Assembly: GCF_008000775.2 (NCBI RefSeq)
Contig: NZ_CP042905.2
Coordinates: 960,001 to 992,000 of the forward strand
Length of the DNA stretch: 32,000 nucleotides
Direction of reading: 5' to 3'
Source: Promethearchaeum syntrophicum
GTDB lineage: Archaea > Asgardarchaeota > Lokiarchaeia > Sigyniarchaeales > Promethearchaeaceae
Shown: piece by piece, positions 4,841-31,966 of the stretch
Layout: each line of letters starts with the position of its first letter
Numbering within the stretch: the stretch's first letter is position 1
Notes under the pieces: model-generated
Database searches by the model: none
The model's input: the letters and a program-made list of their open reading frames with translations, nothing else
Told to the model about the DNA's origin: nothing
Position numbers and translations under genes: made by a program

Positions 4841-5280
4841 TGGTAAAGAAAACAAAAAAGGAAAGTAAAATGAGTAAAACAAAATACGTATATTGGGAAA
4901 CATTAGAAAATAGAAAAAAGGTCAAGAAAAAAAAGTGGATGAAGAAATTCATGAAAAATAAAATTACAACATTGACACTTGAAGAAATTTTAAAAGAGGT
5001 CAATAGACATCAGGATTATTTTTTATCAATAGTAGACGAAAATCATAGTATTCATTACCTTAATGGTTTTGTCGGTGTGGGTGCCTTAAAAGAACCTCGA
5101 GACCATCTTGGTTATCTCAATACAATAGTTATGTATAGTTGTGGATATAATCTTGATGGCAGCGAAATTAAGAAACTAAGCGAACAGGAATTCACTCTTG
5201 AAGAGGCTGAAGATATGGTAGAAGTTCTAAAAATTTGTATTGAGCGGTATAAAGAGCGTGAACATAGAAAAAAGGATTGA
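4840..5280 (+). CDS. hypothetical protein (146 aa, Lys-rich N-terminus)
   Basis: The ORF has a GTG start coupled to the upstream stop. I recognised no motif. Confidence 0.5.
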   Translation: MVKKTKKESKMSKTKYVYWETLENRKKVKKKKWMKKFMKNKITTLTLEEILKEVNRHQDYFLSIVDENHSIHYLNGFVGVGALKEPRDHLGYLNTIVMYSCGYNLDGSEIKKLSEQEFTLEEAEDMVEVLKICIERYKEREHRKKD

Positions 5281-5285
5281 AAATA

Positions 5286-5561
5286 ATGGCAAAGAAAAAT
5301 ACAATTACGAAAAAACCAACAACTCTTGACATGTTGCATGAATTTGCTGAATATACTGGAAAAGAATTTGCAGAAGTTAAAAATCTCTATGAAAAGATGT
5401 TAATTAAGGAAAAAGAAAAAAATTTCAATAAATGGGATGGTAAAATTCTTGATAAGCGAGTTCTTGTGAAGTTAAGAAATTTATATGATGAAAGTCAATT
5501 TGTATTATATTCTAAAAAATTTAATTCAATGTGGTTTCTTTATTTTTCTAAGAATGTATGA
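5286..5561 (+). CDS. hypothetical protein (91 aa)
   Basis: I chose the first ATG, giving MAKKNTITKK. The ORF track instead starts at TTG 5277, which overlaps the upstream stop. Confidence 0.5.
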   Translation: MAKKNTITKKPTTLDMLHEFAEYTGKEFAEVKNLYEKMLIKEKEKNFNKWDGKILDKRVLVKLRNLYDESQFVLYSKKFNSMWFLYFSKNV

Positions 5562-5643
5562 ATAAGATTCTTTTTTTAGATACAATAGAAGGTTGTAAAA
5601 AGGAAAATGGAATTATTAATTTTTTTATATAGTTTTATACTAT

Positions 5644-5955
5644 TTAACTAACCAAAGATTCAATATCCATACCCATATTTTGCATTATTTTTATCATACA
5701 TTCATCAATTGGTCTCAAACCATTTTTATCCAAATCTCCAGACAGGTGTTTCATTAACAAATTCATAGGTAATTCGAGATCATCAGGGATTGGAATTTCT
5801 TCTTGATAAAGTAATAATCAATTAATAATTATTTTGAAGTTGTTTTTCACAAGAGTAGGTTCTTTATCGTAAATTGATATAAAATATCCACTAAAATTGT
5901 TAATTGTTATTATTTTCTGTTGTTTTTTGACTGTTTCAGTAAATTTTACTTTCAT
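5644..5955 (-). pseudogene. 104-codon reading frame interrupted by a single in-frame TGA (5818-5820)
   Basis: My translation is MKVKFTETVKKQQKIITINNFSGYFISIYDKEPTLVKNNFKIIIN*LLLYQEEIPIPDDLELPMNLLMKHLSGDLDKNGLRPIDECMIKIMQNMGMDIESLVS*. Each half is under 60 aa, so neither appears in the ORF track. Confidence 0.4.
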
Positions 5956-6197
5956 AGATTTCACCTAAATACTCGTTAATTAATACAGATTAAAACATAT
6001 ATTTACAAAAACGTGTTTTAAATTAATATAGTATAAAAATATCCTAATCTTTTTTTGTGATTTTTTTCTTAATTTTAAACTCCTACAGAGTTTTAAAAAT
6101 TAGGAAAATTCTAATTATAAGTGAATAAAATGAAATATAAAATCATTTAAATTGACTAATTATAATTTCAGTTGAGAATTAAAAAATGATGAAAAAA

Positions 6198-6851
6198 CTA
6201 TAATTCTACATAGGGCAAATCTTCATCAGGAACACGACCATAATAATGTGAAAGTTTCAACCTTAATTGATGTCTTATATCAACTGAAAGCTGCAAAATT
6301 TTGATTTTCTCAAAATTTTTTTTAATCTTACCATTTCCTTTAAGATTCTTACTTTCTACATAAAATACTCGAGTGAAATCAATCATGTAATCGTAAATAT
6401 TTGATTTGTTTCTAATGTATGATTTAAAAAAGGGATTTCCTTTAAAAATAAAGAAGTTTTTAAATGAATAAGTCGGAGATGCTCTATCATATTTTGCCTT
6501 TTCTTCATTCGTTAATGAAAGATAATTGGCTTTAGTAATCGCATTTTTTGGTGCAACTAAGCGATTAATTCTTGTAAGATCTTCATAAAAATAGGGATTA
6601 TTAAAAATTGTTGAATGGATTTCAAATAATGGAGCTAATGAAAAAAATTGAGGTCCTATAGAACAACATGGAGTCAGTATTACTAAAAATTCAGAATTTG
6701 AAATTTCCAATTTGAAATTTGAATTCTCTTGAATTGACAAAAACGGAGTGTTTATAATTGGATGTGTATGAGCAATTCCCTTAACTATGTCACCCAAACG
6801 GAGATTTCTTTCCATTTGTTCTTCGTAAAAATCTTCAATGATCATCATCAT
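6198..6851 (-). CDS. hypothetical protein, third gene of the three-gene cassette
   Basis: 227-aa ORF. The likely start is one of the ATG triplet at 6851/6848/6845, which overlaps the upstream stop (6835-6837) by 11-17 nt. Motifs noted: LGDIVKG, FLVILTPCCSI and a C-terminal LSVDIRHQLRLKLSHYYGRVP. Confidence 0.6.
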   Translation of the reverse strand: MMMIIEDFYEEQMERNLRLGDIVKGIAHTHPIINTPFLSIQENSNFKLEISNSEFLVILTPCCSIGPQFFSLAPLFEIHSTIFNNPYFYEDLTRINRLVAPKNAITKANYLSLTNEEKAKYDRASPTYSFKNFFIFKGNPFFKSYIRNKSNIYDYMIDFTRVFYVESKNLKGNGKIKKNFEKIKILQLSVDIRHQLRLKLSHYYGRVPDEDLPYVEL

Positions 6852-7092
6852 TATCTTCTGGGTTAAAATAAAATTGTTCAATATTTACTTCTGAAGATTT
6901 TATTTTCAACTTTTCATAATTAATAAAATCTTGATTTATTTCAATTTCAGTGATTCCAAGAAATTTTCCTTCCACATCAGTTTTAATTGAAACTAAATAC
7001 TTTTCAAATGGATATTTTACAATTAGAAAAGTTTCAGGATTTTCATGCTTAAAATGACCTATTTGATCAAAAATATCATCTTCATTACTCAT
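6835..7092 (-). CDS. small acidic hypothetical protein, second gene of the cassette
   Basis: 85 aa with acidic termini (MSNEDDIFD... and ...PEDNDDDH). The ATG at 7092 overlaps the upstream TAA (7085-7087) by 8 nt, giving the string ATGAGTAA. Confidence 0.6.
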   Translation of the reverse strand: MSNEDDIFDQIGHFKHENPETFLIVKYPFEKYLVSIKTDVEGKFLGITEIEINQDFINYEKLKIKSSEVNIEQFYFNPEDNDDDH

Positions 7093-7852
7093 CTAATTTA
7101 CCAGTCTCCATATATTTTATAATTGGATCTTTAATCGAATTTCCATATTCCTCAGTAATTAATTCATGTAATTCATCTAAAACATTAAGATAATCACTTG
7201 CATTGACATCTTGTGCGTATCCATCAAAATCCAAATACAATTTTTCAACGCCATCAATAATTTTCACTTTTTCTCCAAATCTTAGATAATTTTCTTCTCT
7301 TTTTACATCTGCAAAAAAAGCAATTTCTTTAGCATCATTTAAACCAAATCTACTTAGTGGAAAAGTAGAATTATATAATTTTAGAAAATTATTTTTATCT
7401 TTTGGCATTGGACATTCATCAATATACCTTAAACCAATTCGTTCAAAAACTAAAATTGGAATATATTCAAGAAAAACTTTCATAACTTCTATTATAACTT
7501 CTCTTAGACTATTATCTGGATCTCTTTGATAAGATTTATACTTAGTTGATGAAATCGATAGAGTATTTGAGGATATCTCTAATAAATAATTGCTAGATGA
7601 TTCAAATCTCCATATGGTATTACCAATTGGTTGATCAGAAATACTTGGGATTTTGGTATCAGGAGTAATGTTAGCAAATAAGATGTTGTGTTTTATAACT
7701 TTGGATGATTTAGGGAATTCTTTCATTAATTTTAATTGAATATCCCCAATTTTAGATCCGATCATAAAGAGATTAGAATACCTAATTTGAAATATAACTT
7801 GCTTTGCAGTAGCATATTTATAGGATTTAGTAATTTTAACCATTAAGATCAC
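7085..7852 (-). CDS. TIGR04255-like hypothetical protein, first gene of the cassette
   Basis: The length is about 255 aa. The N-terminal YKYATAKQVIFQIRYS...IQLKLMKEFPK resembles, from memory, the N-terminal signature of the uncharacterised TIGR04255 family. Start is GTG at 7852 or, more likely, ATG at 7843. Confidence 0.5.
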   Translation of the reverse strand: MILMVKITKSYKYATAKQVIFQIRYSNLFMIGSKIGDIQLKLMKEFPKSSKVIKHNILFANITPDTKIPSISDQPIGNTIWRFESSSNYLLEISSNTLSISSTKYKSYQRDPDNSLREVIIEVMKVFLEYIPILVFERIGLRYIDECPMPKDKNNFLKLYNSTFPLSRFGLNDAKEIAFFADVKREENYLRFGEKVKIIDGVEKLYLDFDGYAQDVNASDYLNVLDELHELITEEYGNSIKDPIIKYMETGKLDE

Positions 7853-7921
7853 TTTGTTAGATATTCAATATATTTTTACTTATTAAAAAAAATATAATGA
7901 TCTAATAAAATTTGAATACTA

Positions 7922-7981
7922 TTATAAAGAAGATAATGAAAATATTAAAATAAAAATTGGCAAAATCATCTCTTTTGTCAT
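7922..7981 (-). CDS. 19-aa hydrophobic micro-ORF (MTKEMILPIFILIFSLSSL)
   Basis: AGGAGGA lies 9-10 nt upstream of ATG 7981, and the TAA stop is at 7922-7924. The ORF sits between the RM gene terminator tract and the cassette. Confidence 0.3.
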   Translation of the reverse strand: MTKEMILPIFILIFSLSSL

Positions 7982-8020
7982 AATTTATATTCCTCCTAAT
8001 TGATTATTTGAAAAGGTCAT

Positions 8021-8053
8021 AAAAAAAAAAAAAAGAAGAAAAAAAAAAAAGAA
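8021..8053 (-). terminator. oligo-T tract on the coding strand directly after the RM gene stop
   Basis: The plus strand reads A14-GAAG-A12-GAA at 8021-8053, which is T-rich on the minus strand 13 nt after the stop at 8066. Archaeal termination uses oligo-T. Confidence 0.45.
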
Positions 8054-8065
8054 TTAAATAATTTT

Positions 8066-11000
8066 TCAGTAACGAACTATTTTTTCTATTTCTTTTACGA
8101 TTTTCTCATCTAAACCATATAATTCATATACCAAATTATCAATGGTTCTATAATTCTTTGATATTTGGTTTTTAAAATCCCTTAACTCTTTGAAATATGA
8201 TATAATGTTTTCAAAAATATCTTTCTTCTCAATATTTAATTTCTGTTTTTTTAGAATATTAAAGAAATTATCTTTTGATTCCTGTTCGATTTCTAAATTC
8301 AATGTTTTATGTATTTTGAAATAAATATCTGAGATTGAAATTGAATATTGAAGAGAAAGATAGTCCATGAAATTATTATATTTAATGGAAAATTTGTTCC
8401 CAAATTCAATTGTTTCAATACTTAATTTTTCAATCATTTCTACTTTTGATTTATTGTTTTCAGTAATTATAGGAATTAACATATCTTTAAGATCATTAGA
8501 ATTTAATTTTGGAAAGTTCTTTTTTATTGCGTTTGCATGTTTTTTTAAATGAGTATATGTAAAGAACTTTGAATTAATTAAACTCAGTAATAATTCTAAG
8601 GAATATTCATCCTCAATTTGATTTATAACTGCACATGTATTTTTAACAATAATTTCTTCCTCGGTTATTGTTGCTAAAATTGTTTTATTAACAATCTGTT
8701 GAATAATTATTTTCTTTTGATTGAATATCGTCAGATTTCTTGGTTCTGCTAAATGTCTTCCATAGTTAATAAAGGAATCATTATTTCCACTTTTCCATAT
8801 ATTATAATATTTTGATATATTCTTTCCAGAATAAAATTTATTAGTATGTTCATGAGTTTGTAAATTGCTCAAATAAACATTTTCATCTTTGTCTCTTTGA
8901 ATTTGGGATGATTCTGCATTAAAATAAGATATTCCCTTTCCTTTTTGGTAAACCTTGACGCCAAATATTGTAAAGTATTTCTCTTTTAGTTTTAATGTAT
9001 TTTTTTCCAGAAATTCCAAAGAATTTATTCTAAATCTAAATTTTTCATCAAGTTTTTCAATTGGTAATTGATTAAATTCATCCTTCTCTAGCTCAAAAAC
9101 ATTTAATTCTGATCGAGGGATTAATTTTAAATCTTTTAGTTCTATGATTTCTGAGCTATTTATTGTATTCGGGAAAGTAATTATGGCTGAAGGATAATCC
9201 ACATCTTCAAAAACATTATCTCCTAAATCAATTACTTTTAGTTTTTTGGAAAAATGTAATAATTCTCTTCTTACATCAAAATAATCTGGCATTTCTATTA
9301 TTCCATTGGGTACGATATAACCAAAAGCTCCATTAGGTGAAAGTAATGATAAAGCTTTTTTTATAAACATTTTAAAGGAATTTACAACTCGGAAACATAC
9401 ATCCTCGTATTCTTTCTTTAAAAATTTCAATGAATCTGCATTAAATTCAGCACCCCAAGGAGGATTACCAATTATTATATCAAATTTCTTTTTTGGAAGA
9501 ATATTTGGATAATTCTCTTCCCAATTAAATGCAGAAGTTTTATCAATGGAACTATCATTGATTAAAGAATTTCCACATTTAATTATGTTTGATAAATTCA
9601 TTAATTTTTCATTACGTTGTAGAATCTTAAAGAATATTGACAATTTAGTTAGTTCTACAGATTCTTCATTAATATCAACACCAAAAATATTATTTTTAAT
9701 AATAGGAATAGCTTCTTTAATTTCTTGAAATTTTTCAAGTTTAAAATAAGTTGGAACTTTCTTATCTTTCGATTTAATCTTTTTATTTTTATTTTTAGTT
9801 ATATATTTACCTTGCATTTCTTTGAAATCCATTATTTCTCTTTTTATATCTAATAGAATATCGACTGTTTTAATTAAAAATGCGCCTGAACCACAAGAAA
9901 GATCTAAAATTTTGACATTTAGTAATTTTTCATCTAATTCTTCTATGTTTTCTTCATATTCAGCAATTAGATTTGGTATTGATGGAATTCCCCCCTTTTT
10001 AGATAAAAATGGAATAATTGTATTTCTACATAAATATTCTGTGATAAATTCAGGAGTGTAAAAAATACCTTCCTTTTTACGAATCTTTATATCATCCCCT
10101 TTCAATTTCTCAATATCTGAAATAGATTGTTCAAATATATGTCCTAAAATTAGTATACTTATTTCACTCGTAAAATCAAACCTACCCATGAGAATTATAT
10201 TTAGGATTAATTCATTAAGCTCTCCACTGAAAATTTTAATAATTTCTTGTAAATATTCATTTATATCTTGTCTCTCCCTCAATTTAGAATTTAGATAAAT
10301 TTCTTTGTAATAATTCTTTCTTCTTAGGTCTCTAAACGAAATTTCTGGAGGAAAATCTTCTTCAAATAACCCACCATTGAAACCAAAAATTTTTATTGGA
10401 GATTCACTGCCTGAATTAAATTTATTAAATAAAACATTAATTCCTTGATATACAAATGTAGATTTCTCATTAATAACTAATGGGTTTTTAAGAATCGGTA
10501 ATATTGAGTTTTCAAGAATATTTTTACTTATTTTATTTGTACTCTCTGCAAAATATATAAATAATATTCTGTTAAGGAAAATTTGTGCGTATTTTATTGA
10601 AAGGTTTACACCTAAACCTGAAAATTGAAATTCCTTTATCAGCATCAATCGAGTTTCATGATATATTTTGTAGAATTCAGAAGAAAATGATTTTTCCTCT
10701 TTATCAGATTCTAAATAGAGTGTTTCTAAGAATTTTTCATCAATAATCCGTCTTTTAGAAAAAATTCCAATGAATTCTTTGATTTTTGATTCATCTTTCA
10801 GAATGTCTCTAAATTTAAATTGGTAATAACGCTGATTACCTTTAGTATAATCTAACAATATAAATACATCATAATTAGTACATACACCATAAGGTATTGG
10901 ATATTCGCTCATTTTAGTCCATGTTTGGGAAACTGGAGTCTCATAACCTATTTTTTTACGATATTGTTTTCCAAATAAATCCTTTTGTTTGAGCCCTTTA

Positions 11001-11281
11001 CATTCGAAATAAACGGCTATTTTATCTTTATTAGGGTTTAATATAGGAAACTCCATATTTCCTCTTTCATGTTGCAAGTATTCTATTCCTATTTCATAAT
11101 CCAAAATATCATGTAAAATTGTGTTAGCAAATTCAATATAGGCTTTTTTCTCGTCTTTTAATTGCCCCGTGTCTAATAGATTCAACCATCTGCTAATAGC
11201 TTCTTTTTGAACTTTATTTACTTCTACATTTTCACATAAACGCTTAATAGTGGTTTCTTTGAATAATGCACCATTTACCAT
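8066..11281 (-). CDS. Type IIG/IIL single-polypeptide restriction-modification enzyme (Eco57I/MmeI-like, N6-adenine methyltransferase fused to an N-terminal PD-ExK nuclease)
   Basis: Motifs read in order: N-terminal MEF(77)...YFECK(93-95) nuclease-like E...ExK, FNGGLF, GIFYTPEFI, SAM motif I ILDLSCGSGAFL, FGVDIN, and catalytic motif IV IIGNPPWG (DNA 9455-9466). About 460 aa follow as a target-recognition-sized C-terminus. Confidence 0.8.
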   Translation of the reverse strand: MVNGALFKETTIKRLCENVEVNKVQKEAISRWLNLLDTGQLKDEKKAYIEFANTILHDILDYEIGIEYLQHERGNMEFPILNPNKDKIAVYFECKGLKQKDLFGKQYRKKIGYETPVSQTWTKMSEYPIPYGVCTNYDVFILLDYTKGNQRYYQFKFRDILKDESKIKEFIGIFSKRRIIDEKFLETLYLESDKEEKSFSSEFYKIYHETRLMLIKEFQFSGLGVNLSIKYAQIFLNRILFIYFAESTNKISKNILENSILPILKNPLVINEKSTFVYQGINVLFNKFNSGSESPIKIFGFNGGLFEEDFPPEISFRDLRRKNYYKEIYLNSKLRERQDINEYLQEIIKIFSGELNELILNIILMGRFDFTSEISILILGHIFEQSISDIEKLKGDDIKIRKKEGIFYTPEFITEYLCRNTIIPFLSKKGGIPSIPNLIAEYEENIEELDEKLLNVKILDLSCGSGAFLIKTVDILLDIKREIMDFKEMQGKYITKNKNKKIKSKDKKVPTYFKLEKFQEIKEAIPIIKNNIFGVDINEESVELTKLSIFFKILQRNEKLMNLSNIIKCGNSLINDSSIDKTSAFNWEENYPNILPKKKFDIIIGNPPWGAEFNADSLKFLKKEYEDVCFRVVNSFKMFIKKALSLLSPNGAFGYIVPNGIIEMPDYFDVRRELLHFSKKLKVIDLGDNVFEDVDYPSAIITFPNTINSSEIIELKDLKLIPRSELNVFELEKDEFNQLPIEKLDEKFRFRINSLEFLEKNTLKLKEKYFTIFGVKVYQKGKGISYFNAESSQIQRDKDENVYLSNLQTHEHTNKFYSGKNISKYYNIWKSGNNDSFINYGRHLAEPRNLTIFNQKKIIIQQIVNKTILATITEEEIIVKNTCAVINQIEDEYSLELLLSLINSKFFTYTHLKKHANAIKKNFPKLNSNDLKDMLIPIITENNKSKVEMIEKLSIETIEFGNKFSIKYNNFMDYLSLQYSISISDIYFKIHKTLNLEIEQESKDNFFNILKKQKLNIEKKDIFENIISYFKELRDFKNQISKNYRTIDNLVYELYGLDEKIVKEIEKIVRY

Positions 11282-12485: not shown

Positions 12486-14465
12486 TTAAGTTAAATCTGC
12501 TAAATTGTCTACTACTTTGTAGTATGATTTAGGTCTACTTGCTTTCTTAACTAAAGGTTTTTTCTTGATTTTTTCTACAATACCTTCTTTGATTAAGTTA
12601 TTAAGGATAGAATAAATTTGTTTTATTGTAGAAATTTTTCTAATTTCACAACTATTGTAAATTTCTAAACATTCTTCTACACTCCCCAATCCTTTATCTT
12701 TTAATTTTTTGATAAACTTATTGTATTTTTCTTCAGGTATACAATTGAAATTATGAATTTGACTTTCTGGAAATTTAGAATTTTTTACATCAAAATTACT
12801 CATAATATATAATATTTTTTCAAAAGGATGGTGTAGAGTTCTTAGTCTTTCACCCATTTGTAGTGATTGAATTGGACCATAAAGTTCTGTTAATATCTCT
12901 AAAGGAATATTCAAGCATCTACTTATTAATTTACGAATATTAACAGGATACTGACAAGAACCAAATTGAATACCAACATCAAAATCCTTAAATTTATTTT
13001 TACCATCAGTATTGTAAAAGTGCTCAAACTCTACTTGTATATTATATTTTTTAATAAATTCTTTTAAGTCGAATTTTAGTTGATTTTTTATTCTCTTGAA
13101 TGCTGTTATGAAAATTTTTTCGTTTTTATGTTTTAAAAGAATCTGTTTTAACTTCTTTAACAAATTATAATATTTAGAAGTAAATTGGTTAGTTTTTGTA
13201 CTGATTAGAGTATATTTTGCGTAATTTCCAGATGTGAGTTTATTTACACGTTTGAATTGTGGTATTATATTAGGATCATATATGATATCTACCTTATCTT
13301 TAAATTCAGGCATAATTTCATAAAACATTTCTTCTGACATCCCAGAGGCTGGGATTGTTGTATGATTGCTTTTTTCTATTATCTCAACAACATTTTTACG
13401 TGTGTTTTTCAAATAGTTAAATAATAGATTTTTATCAATATCTATCCTATCTTTTAGAGGAATATCATTTTCTTTAATATTGTAAACATCAATAAAAATT
13501 TTAAAAAGATTAGGAAATTGATTATATTCTAATTTTATTTTATTATGTTTATTTTCTATTATACAACTTTTAAAATAATCACTCCATTCTTCAATTTCTT
13601 TTAAAGTATAGATCTTAGTTAGGTTTTCAAGTAGTTCTATTATTTTATTTTTCTTTTTACGAATAGAGTAGATCTTCTTATCTTTATTTATTATACACTT
13701 CAAAATTTCTTTCAACAATAACCATATTTCTTCTTGATCTGGATTATTATATTCAAAGAAAACCTTGTCTACTAATTTTATATAATCCTTTATTTTCAAA
13801 GACTTAGGAAAACTTATTAACTCAAACAACAAACCCATAAATCCTTCATCGAAAACAAGATCCATATCTTTGTGTTTTTCAACTAAATCACCTGGAAAAT
13901 TCGTATTAAGATAGGAAATATTTAGAAAAATTTCCTTTCCGAAACCAATTTCGTCTGTTTGAGATGCTATATTTTTCAAATCCATATATAAACAACCATT
14001 ACTTCTAAATTCACAAATATCTCTACAATATGTTTTTGTTAAATATCCTTTTCTAACCATGTTAAGAAAATCCTTGTCTTTACAACATTTATTACAAGTA
14101 TAATTTTGTTTTATTTTTTCTTTTATATCTTGAACAAATAAAATATGACTAATAATGTCTTTTTGTGATTCTGTTAAAGGATATGTTCTTGAAGTTAGAA
14201 ACGAAAACTCTTTATCTTTGTTTTTTACATCTTGAATAATCTCAGACTCTATTTCATGATTTTGAGTAAAAATTATCACAGTCTTATCATTTTCAGAATA
14301 ATATTTTACTATTGTATAGGTTTTTCCAGATCCTTGTGTATCTCGAAGCAATGTAATTCGTTTATCTGTATTCTCTAATCTATATTCAATTTTTCCTGAA
14401 TGATAGTTTAGAAAATCAAGAATTTTAAAATCATTAGAAACTGATATTGTATTTTCTAACGACAT
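12486..14465 (-). CDS. SF2-helicase-like P-loop NTPase with a Cys-rich insertion and a C-terminal winged-helix-like region (candidate replication protein of the element)
   Basis: Motifs read: Walker A TQGSGKTY (DNA 14319-14333), Ia-like VIIFTQNHE, Walker B/motif II DLVFDEGF, and VI-like LQMGERLR. Six Cys residues lie between motifs I and II (CNKCC...CRDIC...C). The C-terminal IKQIYSILNNLIKEGIVEK looks like a winged helix. Confidence 0.5.
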   Translation of the reverse strand: MSLENTISVSNDFKILDFLNYHSGKIEYRLENTDKRITLLRDTQGSGKTYTIVKYYSENDKTVIIFTQNHEIESEIIQDVKNKDKEFSFLTSRTYPLTESQKDIISHILFVQDIKEKIKQNYTCNKCCKDKDFLNMVRKGYLTKTYCRDICEFRSNGCLYMDLKNIASQTDEIGFGKEIFLNISYLNTNFPGDLVEKHKDMDLVFDEGFMGLLFELISFPKSLKIKDYIKLVDKVFFEYNNPDQEEIWLLLKEILKCIINKDKKIYSIRKKKNKIIELLENLTKIYTLKEIEEWSDYFKSCIIENKHNKIKLEYNQFPNLFKIFIDVYNIKENDIPLKDRIDIDKNLLFNYLKNTRKNVVEIIEKSNHTTIPASGMSEEMFYEIMPEFKDKVDIIYDPNIIPQFKRVNKLTSGNYAKYTLISTKTNQFTSKYYNLLKKLKQILLKHKNEKIFITAFKRIKNQLKFDLKEFIKKYNIQVEFEHFYNTDGKNKFKDFDVGIQFGSCQYPVNIRKLISRCLNIPLEILTELYGPIQSLQMGERLRTLHHPFEKILYIMSNFDVKNSKFPESQIHNFNCIPEEKYNKFIKKLKDKGLGSVEECLEIYNSCEIRKISTIKQIYSILNNLIKEGIVEKIKKKPLVKKASRPKSYYKVVDNLADLT

Positions 14466-15603: not shown

Positions 15604-16476
15604 ATGGAAATAACAAAATCAGACATTCAGATGGGTTTGGAGAAGTATTTGAAAGAATCTAATAATCCAGATAAGTTGTTAAATGCGGAAATATATGAGA
15701 AAAAAATAATCAATCAACAAATGACAAATCAAGAAATTATGAAATTTTATCGCAATTTTGATAAAGTTATTTCTCCTTATGATATTGATATGGCAATAAA
15801 ATCTATTAATGATTTTATCAATCACAATATAAATCCAAAAGAAATTGTGTTCAAATATGATATCCCTGCAATTTTTGAATATTATAAAAAATCTTCTAAA
15901 CACCAAGATATTTTGAAAAGATTAAAAAAATATGACAAAATATTCAATGGAGATATGACAGTCCAGAAAATTATTGAATATTATCCAGACCTTCATTCTC
16001 GGTATGATATTGATGTTATCAAAAAATCTCTTGATGGGTTTATTACTTATTCGATAGGAATTATGTATGAAGAATTTCGTTATAAAATTCTCAAAAAACA
16101 TTTCCCAAAGGTTATTTGGGGAAAAGGTGGAAAATCTGTTCCCGATTTTAAAATAACACAAAAAAATGGAGATGTTATTTTTGAATCTACGAAAATATTG
16201 GATTTTTCAAATAAAATAAAAATATTGTTTAAACACCATAACAGAGAAATTCAAAGTGCCAAAGAATACATGGACGAAACAGGCTTTGAGCCAAAAGTTC
16301 GTGTACACATTTTCAACAAGTACAATAATAAAATATATGTAGAGTATATCCCACAAGAGGTGATTGTGTCAGACATCACGTTGACGAATGAGAATTACCA
16401 TATCTTTAAAGTTGATGAGTTTTATGATGAACATTCGTTGAGGACATGGATAAAGAATTACAAACTATCATGTTAG
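15604..16476 (+). CDS. hypothetical protein with an internal tandem duplication and a possible nuclease-like C-terminal half
   Basis: AGGTGA lies 9 nt upstream of the ATG. Residues 40-72 (MTNQEIMKFY..YDIDMAIKSINDFI) repeat at 118-147 (MTVQKIIEYY..YDIDVIKKSLDGFI). VPDF...DVIFESTK is only loosely PD-(D/E)xK-like. Confidence 0.55.
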   Translation: MEITKSDIQMGLEKYLKESNNPDKLLNAEIYEKKIINQQMTNQEIMKFYRNFDKVISPYDIDMAIKSINDFINHNINPKEIVFKYDIPAIFEYYKKSSKHQDILKRLKKYDKIFNGDMTVQKIIEYYPDLHSRYDIDVIKKSLDGFITYSIGIMYEEFRYKILKKHFPKVIWGKGGKSVPDFKITQKNGDVIFESTKILDFSNKIKILFKHHNREIQSAKEYMDETGFEPKVRVHIFNKYNNKIYVEYIPQEVIVSDITLTNENYHIFKVDEFYDEHSLRTWIKNYKLSC

Positions 16477-16958: not shown

Positions 16959-18269
16959 TTAGTCTTCTTTCAGAGGATCTATGATTTTCTTTTTATTAAG
17001 AGATTTTACAATGAATTGGAAGTGTTTGTTTAATTCATCCAATTGTTTTTTCAAATTTATATTGGTTTCTTCTATTTTAGAATATTTTTGTATTATTTCT
17101 TGATTTATATTTTCTAACATAGTTATTTTAGTCGCTTGTGAAGTTATTGTATCAGTAATTTTCTCCATTTTGACATTCGTTTCTTTAATATACTCATTTC
17201 TCCCCAATATTAAAATTTTAGATTCAATATTTTCTTTATACCAATTTACGAAGGATTCTTGATCATGTGAAATTTCTTGATAAGCACCAACTAAAACAGC
17301 TGAGTGCCCCATAGTTAATTTGAAAAGATCGCTCCCTTGAGCATCTAAATCTTTAGATCCATTTGATTCATACCACCTCCTTAATGATTTTGGAGTTATG
17401 TTTTTAAGATCTAAAAGATTGCATGTTTCTAATAATTGGTCGTAAAACAAATTTCTACTCATTTTTGAATAATTATCATTAAATCTTTTATCAACTACAA
17501 AAAGCCAAGATCTTTCGGTTAAATTCTCACCCTTTCTTTCTCGATCTTTTAAATAAGTGTGAATAGAATCACATGCTTCAGAACTAAAACAAGTTTGAAA
17601 ACGAGCTTGAGTTTTTTGTCGATTACCCTCTATATAGCACATATTTATTTTTTTGAAATAACCTCGATTGAAATCTTGAATTTTCAGATTGAATAAATCA
17701 GTATCATCCAATCCTGAACTAATTTTACATAATAATATCGTTTTATTTTTAATTGAACTAAATTGGTTATATATCTTCTTTAACCAGTCCTTTCGTTGTT
17801 CTGATGATATACGTTCATTATCATCTCCATTTCGCCATATTTTTTCATTTTTTCCCTTTTTATTCTGGATTGATTCTTTTTTGTTTATTATAACAGGAAC
17901 TTTATTCCTCTTATAAAATGAAGCAATTTTGGAAAAAGCATATTGCTTTGCTGAATTCCAACTCAGTGGTTTTTCAATTTTCTTATTATTGATATTATTC
18001 TTTTTACCGATTAGATAATAGAAGAAACCAAATAATTGTTTTTTAGCAATTTCAGCTTGATTTATTGGATCAATTAATAAATCTTGGTGATGTTCTTTTA
18101 TCAATTCTTCAGGAGTTTTATCTAGAAACTTACAATATTTTTCCAGATTTCCATATCTTGCACGTTTAGATTTTACTCCTTCAACCCATTTTTGAACGTA
18201 TCTATCCTTTGAATATTTAGAAAAATCTCTTTTTCCTTTAATAAATTTTTTTGAAGTTGTTTTTTTCAT
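16959..18269 (-). CDS. tyrosine recombinase / integrase with a C-terminal coiled-coil extension
   Basis: Integrase-like features read: N-terminal SAM-like segment (SAKQYAFSKIASFYKRNKV), YIEGNRQKTQARFQTCFS (beta-hairpin Lys), PKSLRRWYES (Arg-II box) and TMGHSAVLVGAY (His...Tyr nucleophile). About 100 extra heptad-rich residues follow the Tyr. Confidence 0.7.
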   Translation of the reverse strand: MKKTTSKKFIKGKRDFSKYSKDRYVQKWVEGVKSKRARYGNLEKYCKFLDKTPEELIKEHHQDLLIDPINQAEIAKKQLFGFFYYLIGKKNNINNKKIEKPLSWNSAKQYAFSKIASFYKRNKVPVIINKKESIQNKKGKNEKIWRNGDDNERISSEQRKDWLKKIYNQFSSIKNKTILLCKISSGLDDTDLFNLKIQDFNRGYFKKINMCYIEGNRQKTQARFQTCFSSEACDSIHTYLKDRERKGENLTERSWLFVVDKRFNDNYSKMSRNLFYDQLLETCNLLDLKNITPKSLRRWYESNGSKDLDAQGSDLFKLTMGHSAVLVGAYQEISHDQESFVNWYKENIESKILILGRNEYIKETNVKMEKITDTITSQATKITMLENINQEIIQKYSKIEETNINLKKQLDELNKHFQFIVKSLNKKKIIDPLKED

Positions 18270-24301: not shown

Positions 24302-25456
24302 TCATATATCATCACTAAATTTATTAATTGATTTTAACAATTTTTCAGAAATAGAATTAAAAGTTTCCTCTGTAGAATCAAGAATTAACATATCATATCT
24401 TTGCAATATAGTCTGAATTTGGTGAAAATTTTCTCCAATATCATCCTCCGGTAATTCATCAATTAGTAAATTTTTAGATTTCCTCAATTTACGGGTGAAT
24501 TCTATTTCTAATTCGTCTCTAAGGTCTGCTATTGTATCTTCCAGAGATTTATTAGGAGTTGGGGGAGTTATTACTGTTCTTGATTCTAAAAGTTTTTTTA
24601 TTTCGGCATAACGTTGTAATTTTTGAGCAGTACTATATTCTTCGCCCTGAATATCAAAATTCTGATCAACTCTATGAATTTTATTTCCACAGGGATATTG
24701 TGTAATTATCACCCCATATTTTTCTGAATTGGCATTAATTGTAATCCCATAAACATACTTTAAATTAAAATTTTTAATCTTTATGATATTAGACGTATCA
24801 TTTAAAAGAGTTTCATGATTAATTTCATCGGTTTTTGAGCTGTATACTTTAAAGTGTCCATGACTATGAGCCCAACCTAACAATATCTTATTATTTTCCT
24901 TAATATATTGTTGAACTTCTAATACCCCTTCTTCAGATACTTTTACACTCGTTTCAGATAAGGAATGAAAAGGAATATATATTTCAGTAATACGAGCGGG
25001 AGTTTTTGGCGTTAGTCTATTAAAATCTGTTAGAACATAACAATATACTTCTAATTTCTTTGAATCATGTCCAAATTTTTCAATGCTAATTTCATTAATC
25101 GCCTTTGCCATTAAGATTACATCTGAAAAAGCTTTTTCTGTCCAAGGAATAGCATCAATAGCGGGAGGACATTCAATTTCAAATCCCCTATTATCAGAAT
25201 TTTCTGTCAAAATTTTAAAAGATTTTGGATTTTCTCTTGAAGACTGAATTAACGGGTCTTTTTTTATTAAATCATCTAGCGATCGCTCCAGAGTGATGTC
25301 CTTTTGATCTCTATCTGGGAATTTTGAACTTTTTTCTTTGTTATCTTGATCGCTTATAATAGATTTTTCTTTCTCTTTAGAAATTTTATCATCCGAAAGT
25401 AAATCTTCCAGTGAATCGGAGACATATGTTTTTTTTTCTTTTTTTTCCTCTTCCAT
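24302..25456 (-). CDS. JAB/MPN+ (JAMM) metalloprotease-domain protein
   Basis: The complete JAMM motif is present: E136 (KKLEVYCY) followed by H197-S-H199-x7-S207-x2-D210 (WAHSHGHFKVYSSKTD, DNA 24827-24868). The N-terminal 90 aa are acidic/Lys-rich and low in complexity. Confidence 0.75.
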   Translation of the reverse strand: MEEEKKEKKTYVSDSLEDLLSDDKISKEKEKSIISDQDNKEKSSKFPDRDQKDITLERSLDDLIKKDPLIQSSRENPKSFKILTENSDNRGFEIECPPAIDAIPWTEKAFSDVILMAKAINEISIEKFGHDSKKLEVYCYVLTDFNRLTPKTPARITEIYIPFHSLSETSVKVSEEGVLEVQQYIKENNKILLGWAHSHGHFKVYSSKTDEINHETLLNDTSNIIKIKNFNLKYVYGITINANSEKYGVIITQYPCGNKIHRVDQNFDIQGEEYSTAQKLQRYAEIKKLLESRTVITPPTPNKSLEDTIADLRDELEIEFTRKLRKSKNLLIDELPEDDIGENFHQIQTILQRYDMLILDSTEETFNSISEKLLKSINKFSDDI

Positions 25457-30946: not shown

Positions 30947-31240
30947 TTAATAATTTTCATTAATCAACCATTTTACAGGAACGTCTTGACTTGTTCCATT
31001 AGGTAAATGTCTCCTAATGGTGATTGGTAACATTTTATTCTCAAGCTCGTAGGTTGCGATTTCTAAAGGATCATTTACACCTTGAGGAATTTCTATGAAT
31101 GGACTGGCTTGAAACGCGAGTTGTAATGCGCGAGCACCGATAATTCTGCTCCGTTCATATCTGGTTATAAAAATTGAACCAATTTTAATTTTTTTTTCTG
31201 CTTCAATATATTTATCGTATCTTTTTAACGTTCTGCTCAT
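30947..31240 (-). CDS. rpoK: DNA-directed RNA polymerase subunit K (Rpo6 / Rpb6 homologue)
   Basis: ITRYERSRIIGARALQLAFQASPFIEI is the conserved Rpo6/omega core. The length is 97 aa. Confidence 0.85.
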   Translation of the reverse strand: MSRTLKRYDKYIEAEKKIKIGSIFITRYERSRIIGARALQLAFQASPFIEIPQGVNDPLEIATYELENKMLPITIRRHLPNGTSQDVPVKWLINENY

Positions 31241-31714: not shown

Positions 31715-31966
31715 TCACTCTCTAGATGCCCATACAATGTCGTCAGCTGATAATCTCTTGCGCTTTTCATCCTTAACCAATGATAGTGCCTTTTTTGTAG
31801 TCCTTTTAGCTTGCATTTCTAATTGTTCTATTAATAATTCAATGGCTCCATCGCTGACTAATGATGCTCCTTGTTCTTTCATAAATCTTTTTATTGGTGC
31901 CTTAGACATAAAATTCGTTTGAGATTTTGAATTTATAATAATTTTTTTCGATTTTTTTTTAGCCAT
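31715..31966 (-). CDS. archaeal histone-fold protein with a 20-aa Lys-rich N-terminal extension
   Basis: KAPIKRFMKEQGASLVSDGAIELLIEQLEMQAKRTTKKALSLVKDEKRKRLSADDIVWA aligns by eye to HMf-type histones (…RVSDDA… / …GRKTIKAEDIELA…). It is preceded by MAKKKSKKIIINSKSQTNFM. Confidence 0.8.
   Translation of the reverse strand: MAKKKSKKIIINSKSQTNFMSKAPIKRFMKEQGASLVSDGAIELLIEQLEMQAKRTTKKALSLVKDEKRKRLSADDIVWASRE

What the first reader, a model, noticed from the sequence alone, without database searches (positions are those of the whole stretch)
6198..7852. Translationally coupled three-gene cassette of unknown function directly downstream of the Type IIG RM gene (candidate novel defence or toxin module)
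Three same-strand genes overlap start to stop. The 255-aa and 85-aa genes overlap by 8 nt through ATGAGTAA. The 85-aa and 227-aa genes overlap by 11-17 nt at an ATGATGATG start cluster. This implies fixed stoichiometry. The first protein resembles, by N-terminal signature and length, the uncharacterised TIGR04255 family. The second is a small, strongly acidic protein (DD/EE-rich termini), the profile of an antitoxin or inhibitor. The third has an LGDIV…VILTPCCSI…LSxxxRxxLxxKLxxYYGR layout that I cannot assign to a named domain. The cassette lies on a mobile element next to an RM enzyme and a tiny hydrophobic ORF, which is the usual genomic context of defence islands. I know of no described defence system with this composition.
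Basis: inference. Interest (0 to 1): 0.7.

Follow-up and report, generated by a model that had tools for sequence, protein, structure and literature searches.

The report
Conserved three-gene toxin-like cassette (TIGR04255-led)
Next to a restriction enzyme gene in the Asgard archaeon Promethearchaeum syntrophicum lie three overlapping genes that travel together as a fixed set through more than 50 bacterial and archaeal genomes; the set looks like an undescribed three-part toxin-antitoxin or abortive-infection module, but no experiment has tested it.

Summary
Three minus-strand genes, A (7085-7843/7852), B (6835-7092) and C (6198-6851), overlap by 8 nt and by 11-17 nt.

- **Gene identities.** A is a TIGR04255 protein (77.9 bits, cutoff 30). 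B is 85 aa with pI 4.4. C matches no Pfam, NCBIfam, PADLOC or PHROG model.
- **Conservation.** A-B-C recurs in the same order in every related locus with enough sequence (about 55 loci from many bacterial and archaeal phyla). B is intact even where A or C is broken.
- **Folds.** A confident model of C (pLDDT 92) matches only MazF/CcdB toxins, as a split barrel with a five-helix insert. A looks TBP-like/Bet v1-like and cannot be assigned a function.
- **Wider family.** More distant TIGR04255 genes also lead three-gene operons. Their middle gene is often an Xre/CI-type HTH protein. Their third gene is a C-like protein or, in Thermus, a HEPN domain protein.
- **Context.** Flanks are mostly housekeeping genes, with occasional toxin-antitoxin, integrase, TIR or restriction-modification neighbours. 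The cassette moves on its own and is not a strict defence-island resident.

Best reading: a tripartite toxin-antitoxin or abortive-infection module in which C is the effector, B the neutraliser and A a conserved sensor or enzyme. The roles are inferred, not tested. No paper mentions TIGR04255.

The parts
7085..7843 (-). Gene A: TIGR04255 family protein (252 aa from ATG 7843; an alternative GTG start at 7852 gives 255 aa). It is the first and most conserved gene of the cassette.
   Evidence: TIGR04255 E 1e-21, 77.9 bits (cutoff 30); 100% identical to the Promethearchaeum syntrophicum 'TIGR04255 family protein'; 46-sequence alignment with 51% mean column identity; invariant R135-G-L-R-Y-I-D142, D205-F-D207, E191 and E232; model pLDDT 90; only TBP-like/Bet v1-like/YwmB-type fold matches.
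6835..7092 (-). Gene B: small acidic protein (85 aa, pI 4.4), the candidate neutraliser or antitoxin. It overlaps the stop of A by 8 nt (ATGAGTAA).
   Evidence: Conserved in all 61 loci that carry C. No Pfam, PDB or PHROG match.
6198..6851 (-). Gene C: 216-217 aa protein with a split MazF/CcdB-like barrel and a five-helix insert, the candidate toxic effector. Its ATG cluster overlaps the end of B by 11-17 nt.
   Evidence: 139 homologues, none with a Pfam domain; invariant LRxGD, TPCCSI, TRIN and C-terminal R..L..K..YY.R motifs; model pLDDT 92.4, pTM 0.88; the top ~40 PDB matches are all MazF/CcdB (E 7e-3, prob up to 0.99, target-normalised TM 0.5-0.6); 386 clusters at 50% identity, the 150 best-scoring listed all 164-241 aa (mostly ~200-235) with one matched region over nearly the whole profile.
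7853..7921 (-). AT-rich upstream region of A. It holds a TATA-like box (AAAAATATATT, 7877-7867) about 29 nt before the ATG, and a 13-nt inverted repeat (7865-7877 / 7888-7900). It is a candidate promoter for a leaderless transcript, possibly with an operator.
   Evidence: Read; inverted repeat. This is inference only. The region is so AT-rich that both features could be chance.
8021..8052 (-). Long oligo-T tract (on the transcribed strand) just after the stop codon of the restriction-modification gene. It resembles an archaeal terminator and would separate the trio from that gene's transcript.
   Evidence: Its function is inferred.
6181..6197 (-). Two T6 runs immediately after the stop codon of C, a terminator-like end to the three-gene unit.
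   Evidence: Its function is inferred.

Best explanation
The trio is one lineage of a broad, undescribed class of three-gene modules led by a TIGR04255 gene. These modules behave like autonomous, horizontally mobile toxin-antitoxin or abortive-infection cassettes.

In this lineage the proposed roles are as follows.
- **C** is the growth-arresting effector. It has a split MazF/CcdB-type barrel with a five-helix insert and its own invariant polar set (R18, D21, C62, C63, S64, T93, N96, Y145, R193, K199, R206). Most likely it is a metal-independent nuclease, though not with MazF's catalytic residues.
- **B** is the small acidic protein made just before C by coupled translation. It binds and neutralises C.
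- **A** is the most conserved member. It has a TBP-like/Bet v1-like pseudo-dimer with a conserved charged surface (R135, R139, E191, D205, D207, E232). It would be the sensor or enzyme that decides when B stops protecting the cell.

**Shown:** gene order, overlaps, strict co-occurrence, horizontal spread, the folds, the swapping of parts among relatives, and the absence from current catalogues.

**Inferred:** toxicity of C, neutralisation by B, the role of A, and any anti-virus or addiction phenotype.
For: 1. **Strict linkage.** Every close homologue of A with enough downstream DNA is followed by B and C. The same holds when the search starts from C.
2. **Tight junctions everywhere.** -4 and -1 overlaps are the commonest.
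3. **Patchy spread.** Many bacterial phyla and the archaeal groups Methanosarcina, ANME-2, Methanophagales, Bathyarchaeia, Odinarchaeota and Thermoplasmata carry it. Flanks are unrelated, and one copy is inserted between leuCD and leuB.
4. **Fold of C.** A pLDDT 92 model matches only MazF/CcdB toxins.
5. **B resembles an antitoxin in position and charge.** It is acidic (family median pI 5.0) and sits immediately upstream of C. It is intact in all 61 loci that carry C, while A or C is fragmented in about ten of the loci examined.
6. **Modular swapping in the wider TIGR04255 family.** The middle gene becomes an Xre/CI-type HTH protein (Phage_CI_repr 4.5e-6, weak Xre antitoxin HTH). The third gene is a C-like protein with colinear GD[IV]...T-x-x-C-[DS]-[IL] motifs, or a HEPN domain in Thermus pTB1 (4.2e-6).
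7. **Occasional conflict-type neighbours.** These include the Type IIG enzyme here, type I restriction-modification plus serine recombinase in Actinomycetota, ParE/HTH, VapC/CopG, a TIR protein, an Abi-family protein and integrases.
8. **Published precedents.** A split MazF-like domain with a five-helix insert (GajC) is an essential component, and the proposed nuclease effector, of the validated abortive-infection system type II Gabija (PMC13069673). A sensor plus small protein plus nuclease three-part toxin-antitoxin system also exists (CapK/CapS-like with VapC, PMC13373217).
Against: - No experiment exists.
- The fold match of C is weak in E-value (7e-3 at best). Profile comparison to MazF sequences is not significant, and no Arg is conserved at the position that aligns with MazF R29.
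- B has no recognisable DNA-binding or antitoxin domain.
- The C family is not generally basic (median pI 6.1).
- Immediate neighbours are mostly housekeeping genes, so defence-island enrichment is weak.
- A is more conserved than C and has enzyme-like invariant residues, so A could itself be the effector.
- Homology between window-type C and the C-like proteins of other TIGR04255 trios is not statistically established (hhalign E 0.48; only motif-level matches).
- The absence of broken B genes is not significant, given how short B is.
Confidence: 0.55

Rival explanations
1. A (TIGR04255) is the real toxic or enzymatic effector. B is its inhibitor. C is an accessory protein, for example a regulator, an adaptor or a second effector, rather than the toxin.
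For: A is the most conserved gene (51% mean column identity against 41% for C and 37% for B). It carries family-wide invariant charged residues arranged on alternate positions of beta-strands (RxGLRYxD, LDxD, H...E), as in an active site. A is the constant partner while the second and third genes vary. Loci with a broken C but intact A and B exist (L014, L048).
Against: A's fold matches no known toxin or nuclease; it matches only TBP-like/Bet v1-like scaffolds. The third position is filled by classic toxin folds, MazF/CcdB-like here and HEPN in Thermus. Loci with a broken A but intact B and C also exist (L062, L063, L092). In type II systems the gene order antitoxin-then-toxin fits B then C.
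Confidence: 0.17
2. The trio has no conflict function. It would be a small stress-response, regulatory or metabolic complex that happens to be horizontally mobile.
For: Most immediate neighbours are housekeeping genes. No PADLOC model hits any of the three proteins. The C family lacks MazF's catalytic Arg at the position given by the sequence alignment.
Against: The distribution is patchy across two domains of life with unrelated flanks, and several copies are pseudogenised. The cassette is inserted inside a leu operon. The third-gene folds are toxin-type. The middle genes in relatives are Xre-type HTH proteins. It recurs beside restriction-modification, toxin-antitoxin, TIR and integrase genes.
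Confidence: 0.12
3. The trio is an accessory of the adjacent Type IIG restriction-modification gene, for example a controller, specificity or anti-restriction unit, and works only with it.
For: It lies 213 nt downstream on the same strand. Actinobacterial relatives lie beside type I hsdMSR genes.
Against: None of the other window-type loci examined has a conserved restriction-modification neighbour. A 32-nt oligo-T tract and an AT-rich promoter-like region separate the two units.
Confidence: 0.03
4. C is a CcdB-like poison of a protein target, such as gyrase or another enzyme, and not a nuclease. The rest of the model is unchanged.
For: CcdB chains are among the fold matches (ranks 34, 36, 39). 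MazF catalytic residues are not evident.
Against: MazF chains rank higher and in far greater number than CcdB. The invariant R/K/T/S/N/Y set is typical of metal-independent RNases; this is inference from general knowledge of MazF and ToxN chemistry.
Confidence: 0.1

Closest known systems
MazEF / Kid-Kis / CcdAB type II toxin-antitoxin systems (MazF/CcdB fold superfamily)
   Same: C has the same barrel fold, and the only solved structures it matches are of this kind. A small acidic protein is encoded immediately upstream with overlapping stop and start codons. The cassette is mobile, patchily distributed and often decayed.
   Different: There is no sequence-level match to PemK/MazF or CcdB. The barrel is split by a five-helix insert of about 45 residues. 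The invariant residues differ (CCS motif, no Arg at the MazF R29 position). B has no AbrB/RHH/HTH domain. A third, larger and more conserved gene (TIGR04255) leads the operon.
Type II Gabija GajC-GajB (Liu-DS1; PMC13069673, NAR 2026)
   Same: [quoted passage not shown] The model of C has exactly this layout, with five helices at residues 80-123 between barrel strands.
   Different: GajC works with a UvrD-type helicase (GajB). The window trio has no helicase and has A and B instead.
Tripartite toxin-antitoxin systems with a sensor or accessory third gene (CapK/CapS-like plus VapC, PMC13373217; toxin-antitoxin-chaperone systems with a SecB-like chaperone; paaR-paaA-parE)
   Same: Three co-oriented genes, in which a nuclease-type toxin is controlled by a small partner and a third protein sets the conditions for activation (for CapK/CapS-VapC).
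   Different: A is not a GHKL kinase, a STAS protein, a SecB-like protein or an HTH regulator (no Pfam hit; TBP-like fold). The biochemical link between A and B is unknown.
TIGR04255 family (NCBIfam 'sporadically distributed' uncharacterised family)
   Same: A is a full-length member.
   Different: The family has no assigned function and no paper in the library mentions it. This work adds that its members sampled here, in Actinomycetota, Pseudomonadota, Deinococcota, Thermoplasmata and the window-type clade, are nearly all the first gene of a three-gene operon with swappable second and third genes.

Membership tests
TIGR04255 (gene A) | Full-length match to the NCBIfam model above its curated cutoff | tested here: met
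   77.9 bits against a cutoff of 30, E 1e-21, profile positions 5-248 of 252.
MazF/PemK toxin family (gene C) | Sequence match to the PemK_toxin or CcdB models | tested here: not met
   no Pfam family at E<=1; no PDB sequence match; hhalign against B. subtilis and E. coli MazF, E 0.32 and 0.12.
MazF/PemK toxin family (gene C) | MazF/CcdB SH3-like barrel fold with a C-terminal helix | tested here: met
   a pLDDT 92 model whose top ~40 PDB matches are all MazF/CcdB, with prob up to 0.99 and target-normalised TM 0.5-0.6. E-values are only 7e-3 to 0.3, and the barrel is split by an insert.
MazF/PemK toxin family (gene C) | Catalytic Arg (EcMazF R29) and Thr (T52) in place | tested here: inconclusive
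   One search aligns VVLTPCCSI with MazF AVVLSP, which puts a non-conserved residue at the R29 position. No residue-level structural alignment was available.
Type II toxin-antitoxin system | Adjacent co-oriented genes with overlapping or near-overlapping stop and start codons, antitoxin upstream of toxin | tested here: met
Type II toxin-antitoxin system | Antitoxin carries a DNA-binding domain (HTH, RHH or AbrB) for autoregulation | tested here: not met
   Window-type B has no domain hit. The middle genes of other TIGR04255 trios do have Xre/CI-type HTH domains.
Type II toxin-antitoxin system | Toxin arrests growth and the antitoxin neutralises it by binding | not testable with these tools
   This needs expression and binding experiments.
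Type III toxin-antitoxin system (ToxIN/AbiQ, with a MazF-like toxin) | Tandem-repeat RNA antitoxin array upstream of the toxin gene | tested here: not met
   no relevant tandem array in 5900-8200; no Rfam hit.
Known anti-phage systems (PADLOC-DB v2.0.0) | Any component matches a defence-system model | tested here: not met
   no hit for A, B or C, nor any significant hit for their actinobacterial and Thermoplasmata counterparts. Only the neighbouring Type IIG gene matches.
Type II Gabija (GajC-GajB) | Split MazF-like protein encoded next to a GajB UvrD-type helicase | tested here: not met
   The architecture of C fits the published description of GajC. No helicase is part of or adjacent to the trio. 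Sequence homology to GajC could not be tested.
Toxin-antitoxin-chaperone systems | Third gene is a SecB-like chaperone | tested here: not met
   A has no SecB or other Pfam match, and its fold matches are TBP-like/Bet v1-like.

The most novel reading that the evidence does not exclude
TIGR04255 proteins are a new class of sensor or enzyme that gates interchangeable toxins (split MazF-like, HEPN) through interchangeable small partners (an acidic mini-protein or an Xre-HTH protein). This would define a previously unrecognised, trans-domain family of tripartite abortive-infection or addiction systems present from Asgard archaea to Acinetobacter.
Probability: 0.3. Interest if true: 0.78.

Novelty: new variant of a known kind. 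Interest (0 to 1): 0.62.

Why it matters
If the model holds, it gives a function to TIGR04255, an orphan NCBIfam family. It adds a new three-part architecture to the toxin-antitoxin and abortive-infection repertoire, one shared by bacteria and archaea, including an Asgard archaeon. It also offers a second, independent context for the split MazF-like effector recently validated in type II Gabija. Archaeal immunity beyond CRISPR and restriction-modification is poorly charted, so a cassette with cultivable hosts (Promethearchaeum, Methanosarcina, Acinetobacter, Rhizobium, Thermus) is directly testable. If it proves to be only a selfish addiction module, it is still a new toxin-antitoxin family, but of routine interest.

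Tried and rejected
- **Locus search with the C alignment.** It failed because no stretch was conserved enough. The A alignment was used instead.
- **Sequence-profile searches of PDB** for A, B and C found nothing.
- **hhalign of the C family** against MazF sequences and against the actinobacterial C-like family was not significant. Homology of the C-like proteins rests on synteny and colinear motifs only.
- **Type III toxin-antitoxin system (RNA repeats)** was rejected.
- **Accessory of the restriction-modification gene** was rejected, because the neighbourhood is not conserved.
- **A conserved fourth gene** was not found.
- **tblastn of window A and C against plasmids, and of A against phages,** gave no match. 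Only distant TIGR04255 members are on plasmids.
- **Integrase and att sites for the presumed island** were not confirmed.
- **The GajC sequence** was sought in the paper and in the preprint's tables but is not held.
Full report
**Source and observation**

The window is from the chromosome of the Asgard archaeon Promethearchaeum syntrophicum. C, A and B are 100% identical to DSAG12_01450, a 'TIGR04255 family protein' and DSAG12_01451.

Three minus-strand ORFs occupy 7085-7852, 6835-7092 and 6198-6881. The sequence shows ATGAGTAA at the A/B junction, an 8-nt overlap. It also shows an ATGATGATG cluster whose three ATGs lie 17, 14 and 11 nt upstream of the end of B's stop codon. Homologue alignments and the NCBI models favour ATG 7843 for A (252 aa) and one of the clustered ATGs for C (216-217 aa).

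The upstream gene 8066-11281 is a Type IIG restriction-modification enzyme. A 32-nt oligo-T tract follows its stop codon. An AT-rich region with a TATA-like box lies about 29 nt before A's ATG. T-runs follow C's stop codon. The trio therefore looks like its own transcription unit; this is inference.

**Database identity**

| Gene | Result |
|---|---|
| A | Full-length TIGR04255 member (77.9 bits, cutoff 30); no Pfam, PADLOC or PHROG match |
| B | 85 aa, pI 4.37, net charge -12; matches nothing |
| C | No match in Pfam, NCBIfam, PADLOC, PHROGs or PDB sequences |

**Is the trio a unit?**

Starting from C, three homologues on long contigs were each preceded by an A-like gene of about 254 aa and a gene of about 80 aa. 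These came from Methanosarcina, a Pirellulales MAG and a Zixibacteria MAG.

Starting from A, a scan of one genome per species gave 80 loci. HMMs of A, B and C showed that every locus with a close A homologue and enough downstream DNA carries B and C in the same order. That is about 55 loci.
- Bacterial hosts include Planctomycetota, Zixibacteria, Chloroflexota, Omnitrophota, KSB1, Ignavibacteria, Chlorobium, Nitrospirota and Desulfobacterota.
- Archaeal hosts include Methanosarcina, ANME-2, Methanophagales, Methanothrix, Methanocella, Methanomethylicia, Bathyarchaeia, Odinarchaeota and Thermoplasmata.

Junctions lie almost always between -14 and +12 nt, and -4 and -1 overlaps are the commonest. 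B is intact in all 61 loci that have C. This includes loci where A is fragmented (L059, L061-L063, L092) or C is fragmented (L014, L048, L059, L061). Given B's short length, this is suggestive but not significant.

The C family is small: 386 clusters at 50% identity among 1.84 billion representatives. The 150 best-scoring members listed are 164-241 aa (mostly about 200-235), each matched in one region over nearly the whole profile.

**Context**

No fourth gene is conserved. The two nearest neighbours on each side in 54 loci gave 150 proteins spread over 148 Pfam families. Most are housekeeping (SelA, NadA, tRNA synthetase and the like). A few are toxin-antitoxin or mobile-element genes (ParE x2, HipA, integrase x2, HTH_3 x3), and a few are PADLOC families (PDC-S02 x3, mad2 x2, PD-DExK x2).

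Individually annotated loci show the following:
- ParE/HTH beside the trio.
- A TIR protein upstream.
- An integrase upstream in an ORFan-rich region.
- Plain housekeeping flanks.
- In one case, insertion between leuCD and leuB.

This is the pattern of an autonomous, mobile, selfish cassette, as is typical of toxin-antitoxin modules. It is not that of a strict defence-island resident.

In the window, the surrounding 4-18 kb stretch is low in G+C and rich in ORFans. I could confirm neither an integrase nor att repeats.

**Folds**

*C.* The model has pLDDT 92.4 and pTM 0.88. Against PDB, its top ~40 matches are all MazF, with some CcdB. Probabilities reach 0.99, target-normalised TM is 0.5-0.6, and E-values run from 7e-3 upward. 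The secondary structure shows N-terminal strands, then five short helices at residues 80-123, then the remaining strands and a long C-terminal helix. This is a split MazF/CcdB barrel.

Sequence profiles do not link C to MazF. In the only alignment produced, the MazF R29 position is not a conserved Arg. C's invariant residues (R18, D21, C62-C63-S64, T93, N96, Y145, R193, K199, R206) form a different polar set.

*A.* The model has pLDDT 90 and two beta-alpha-beta(3-4)-alpha halves. PDB gives only low-TM matches to Bet v1/PYL, YwmB and CYTH-type proteins. BFVD gives one unnamed viral protein (E 2.8e-8, TM 0.47/0.56) and a putative TATA-box-binding protein (prob 0.87). I read this as a TBP-like fold, the class in which SCOP also places Bet v1-like proteins. 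Confidence is moderate and no functional assignment follows.

A's invariant charged residues (R135, R139, E191, D205, D207, E232) alternate along strands, as they would on one face of a sheet. This is inference from the alignment and the secondary structure.

**The wider TIGR04255 family**

Distant members also lead three-gene operons.

| Host or record | Second gene | Third gene |
|---|---|---|
| Actinomycetota, L067-L085 | ~220 aa, weak XRE-type HTH | ~240 aa, RPxFTGDVF...VVLQHPCSMR |
| Thermoplasmata, L065 | 136 aa | 210 aa, QGDII...IILSETCDL |
| Acinetobacter baumannii plasmid | CI/Xre HTH (Phage_CI_repr 4.5e-6) | 273 aa, ...VLVAASQSCDI |
| Rhizobium etli plasmid | 215 aa, weak HTH | 280 aa, QGDY...VVLTQTCDI |
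| Methylocystis plasmid | 70 aa | 192 aa, QGDIF...IIMTQDCDL |
| Thermus brockianus pTB1 | 192 aa | HEPN domain protein (4.2e-6) |

- The Methylocystis trio lies next to an Abi-family gene and a recombinase.
- The Thermus trio lies beside VapC/CopG, a methylase and cas6.
- Four actinobacterial copies sit beside type I hsdMSR genes and a serine recombinase.
- IS elements have disrupted two copies, in L067 and on the Rhodococcus plasmid.

Statistical homology between window-type C and these C-like proteins is not established (hhalign E 0.48). What links them is colinear motifs (FY...GD[IV]; hhh[LM]T-x-x-C-[DS]-[IL]...AP[L]; DF[KR]; R-[ED]-x-L-x-x-[KR]...R) and the identical operon position. A constant first gene, with an antitoxin-like second gene and a toxin-fold third gene that are both swappable, is the signature of modular conflict systems.

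**Mechanism proposed**

C is the effector, B its neutraliser, and A the conserved sensor or enzyme that controls release.

Two published precedents bear on this:
2. CapK/CapS-like proteins with VapC form a toxin-antitoxin system of sensor plus small protein plus nuclease (PMC13373217).

Shown: anatomy, linkage, mobility, folds and modularity. Inferred: toxicity, neutralisation, A's role and the biological trigger. The main rival is that A itself is the effector.

**Novelty**

No paper in the 8-million-paper library contains 'TIGR04255', 'CHP04255' or 'IPR026349'. PADLOC v2 has no model for any component. I classify the trio as a new variant of a known kind, a tripartite toxin-antitoxin or abortive-infection module.

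Scores: interest 0.62, confidence in the best explanation 0.55.

Noticed in passing
window 7922-7981 (-), with AGGAGG at 7992-7997: A 19-codon hydrophobic ORF (MTKEMILPIFILIFSLSSL) lies between the restriction-modification gene and gene A. A perfect AGGAGG sits 10 nt upstream of its ATG, which is striking in this AT-rich archaeal intergenic region. I did not look for it in other loci.
   Followed up: no
alignment A5 (B family); window B residues 10-13: The otherwise variable N-terminal part of B holds a nearly invariant T-G(-S) motif, present in at least 90% of sequences. In the Promethearchaeum copy and its one close relative it is I-G-H/N instead. This could be a modification or recognition site. 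It remains unexplained.
   Followed up: partly
B C-terminus (window 6838-6880 region) and C N-terminus (window about 6820-6851): B ends with a conserved ...(D/E)EFY(K/R)E, and C begins with a conserved MFY(E/Q) (F8 and Y9 are nearly invariant). The two termini therefore carry the same F-Y-acidic motif. B's tail might mimic C's own N-terminal segment.
   Followed up: no
L094 6431-9779: In one metagenomic contig the trio is inserted exactly between the aconitase-family leuC/leuD genes and the isopropylmalate-dehydrogenase-type gene. This is a clean example of cassette insertion into a housekeeping operon.
   Followed up: partly
L087 (Thermus brockianus pTB1) 4989-6683: Here the third gene after TIGR04255 is a HEPN domain protein instead of a C-like protein. 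The operon sits between a VapC/CopG pair with a DNA methylase and a cas6 gene.
   Followed up: partly
L067 11441-12367; L086 6767-9379: IS elements (IS4/5-type in L067; ISL3 and IS110 in the Rhodococcus plasmid) are inserted right after the HTH middle gene. They separate or remove the third gene, as expected if that gene is costly.
   Followed up: no
window 16959-18269 (-): This 436-aa ORF has sequence features reminiscent of a tyrosine recombinase (my own reading of ...LRRWY...GHS...Y...). It had no Pfam Phage_integrase hit and only a 0.59 E-value to XerC-like 4a8e. The 'integrated element' status of the low-GC stretch from about 4.1 to 18.3 kb is unproven.
   Followed up: partly
window 12486-14465 (-): This 659-aa ORFan has weak N-terminal SWI2/SNF2-ATPase similarity and a C-terminal TrmB-type winged-helix similarity. 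It may be a replication or helicase protein of the presumed element.
   Followed up: no
window 15771-15818 and 15996-16043: A 48-nt segment is repeated at 75% identity, 225 nt apart, inside ORF 15604-16476. This indicates an internal duplication of about 75 aa in that ORFan protein.
   Followed up: no
window 24302-25456 (-): A 384-aa protein carries a JAMM/MPN+-like motif (...GWAHSHGHFKVYSSKTD...). I read this by eye and did not test it. The window also holds a histone-fold protein (31715-31966) and an RpoK-like protein (30947-31240), consistent with an Asgard host.
   Followed up: no
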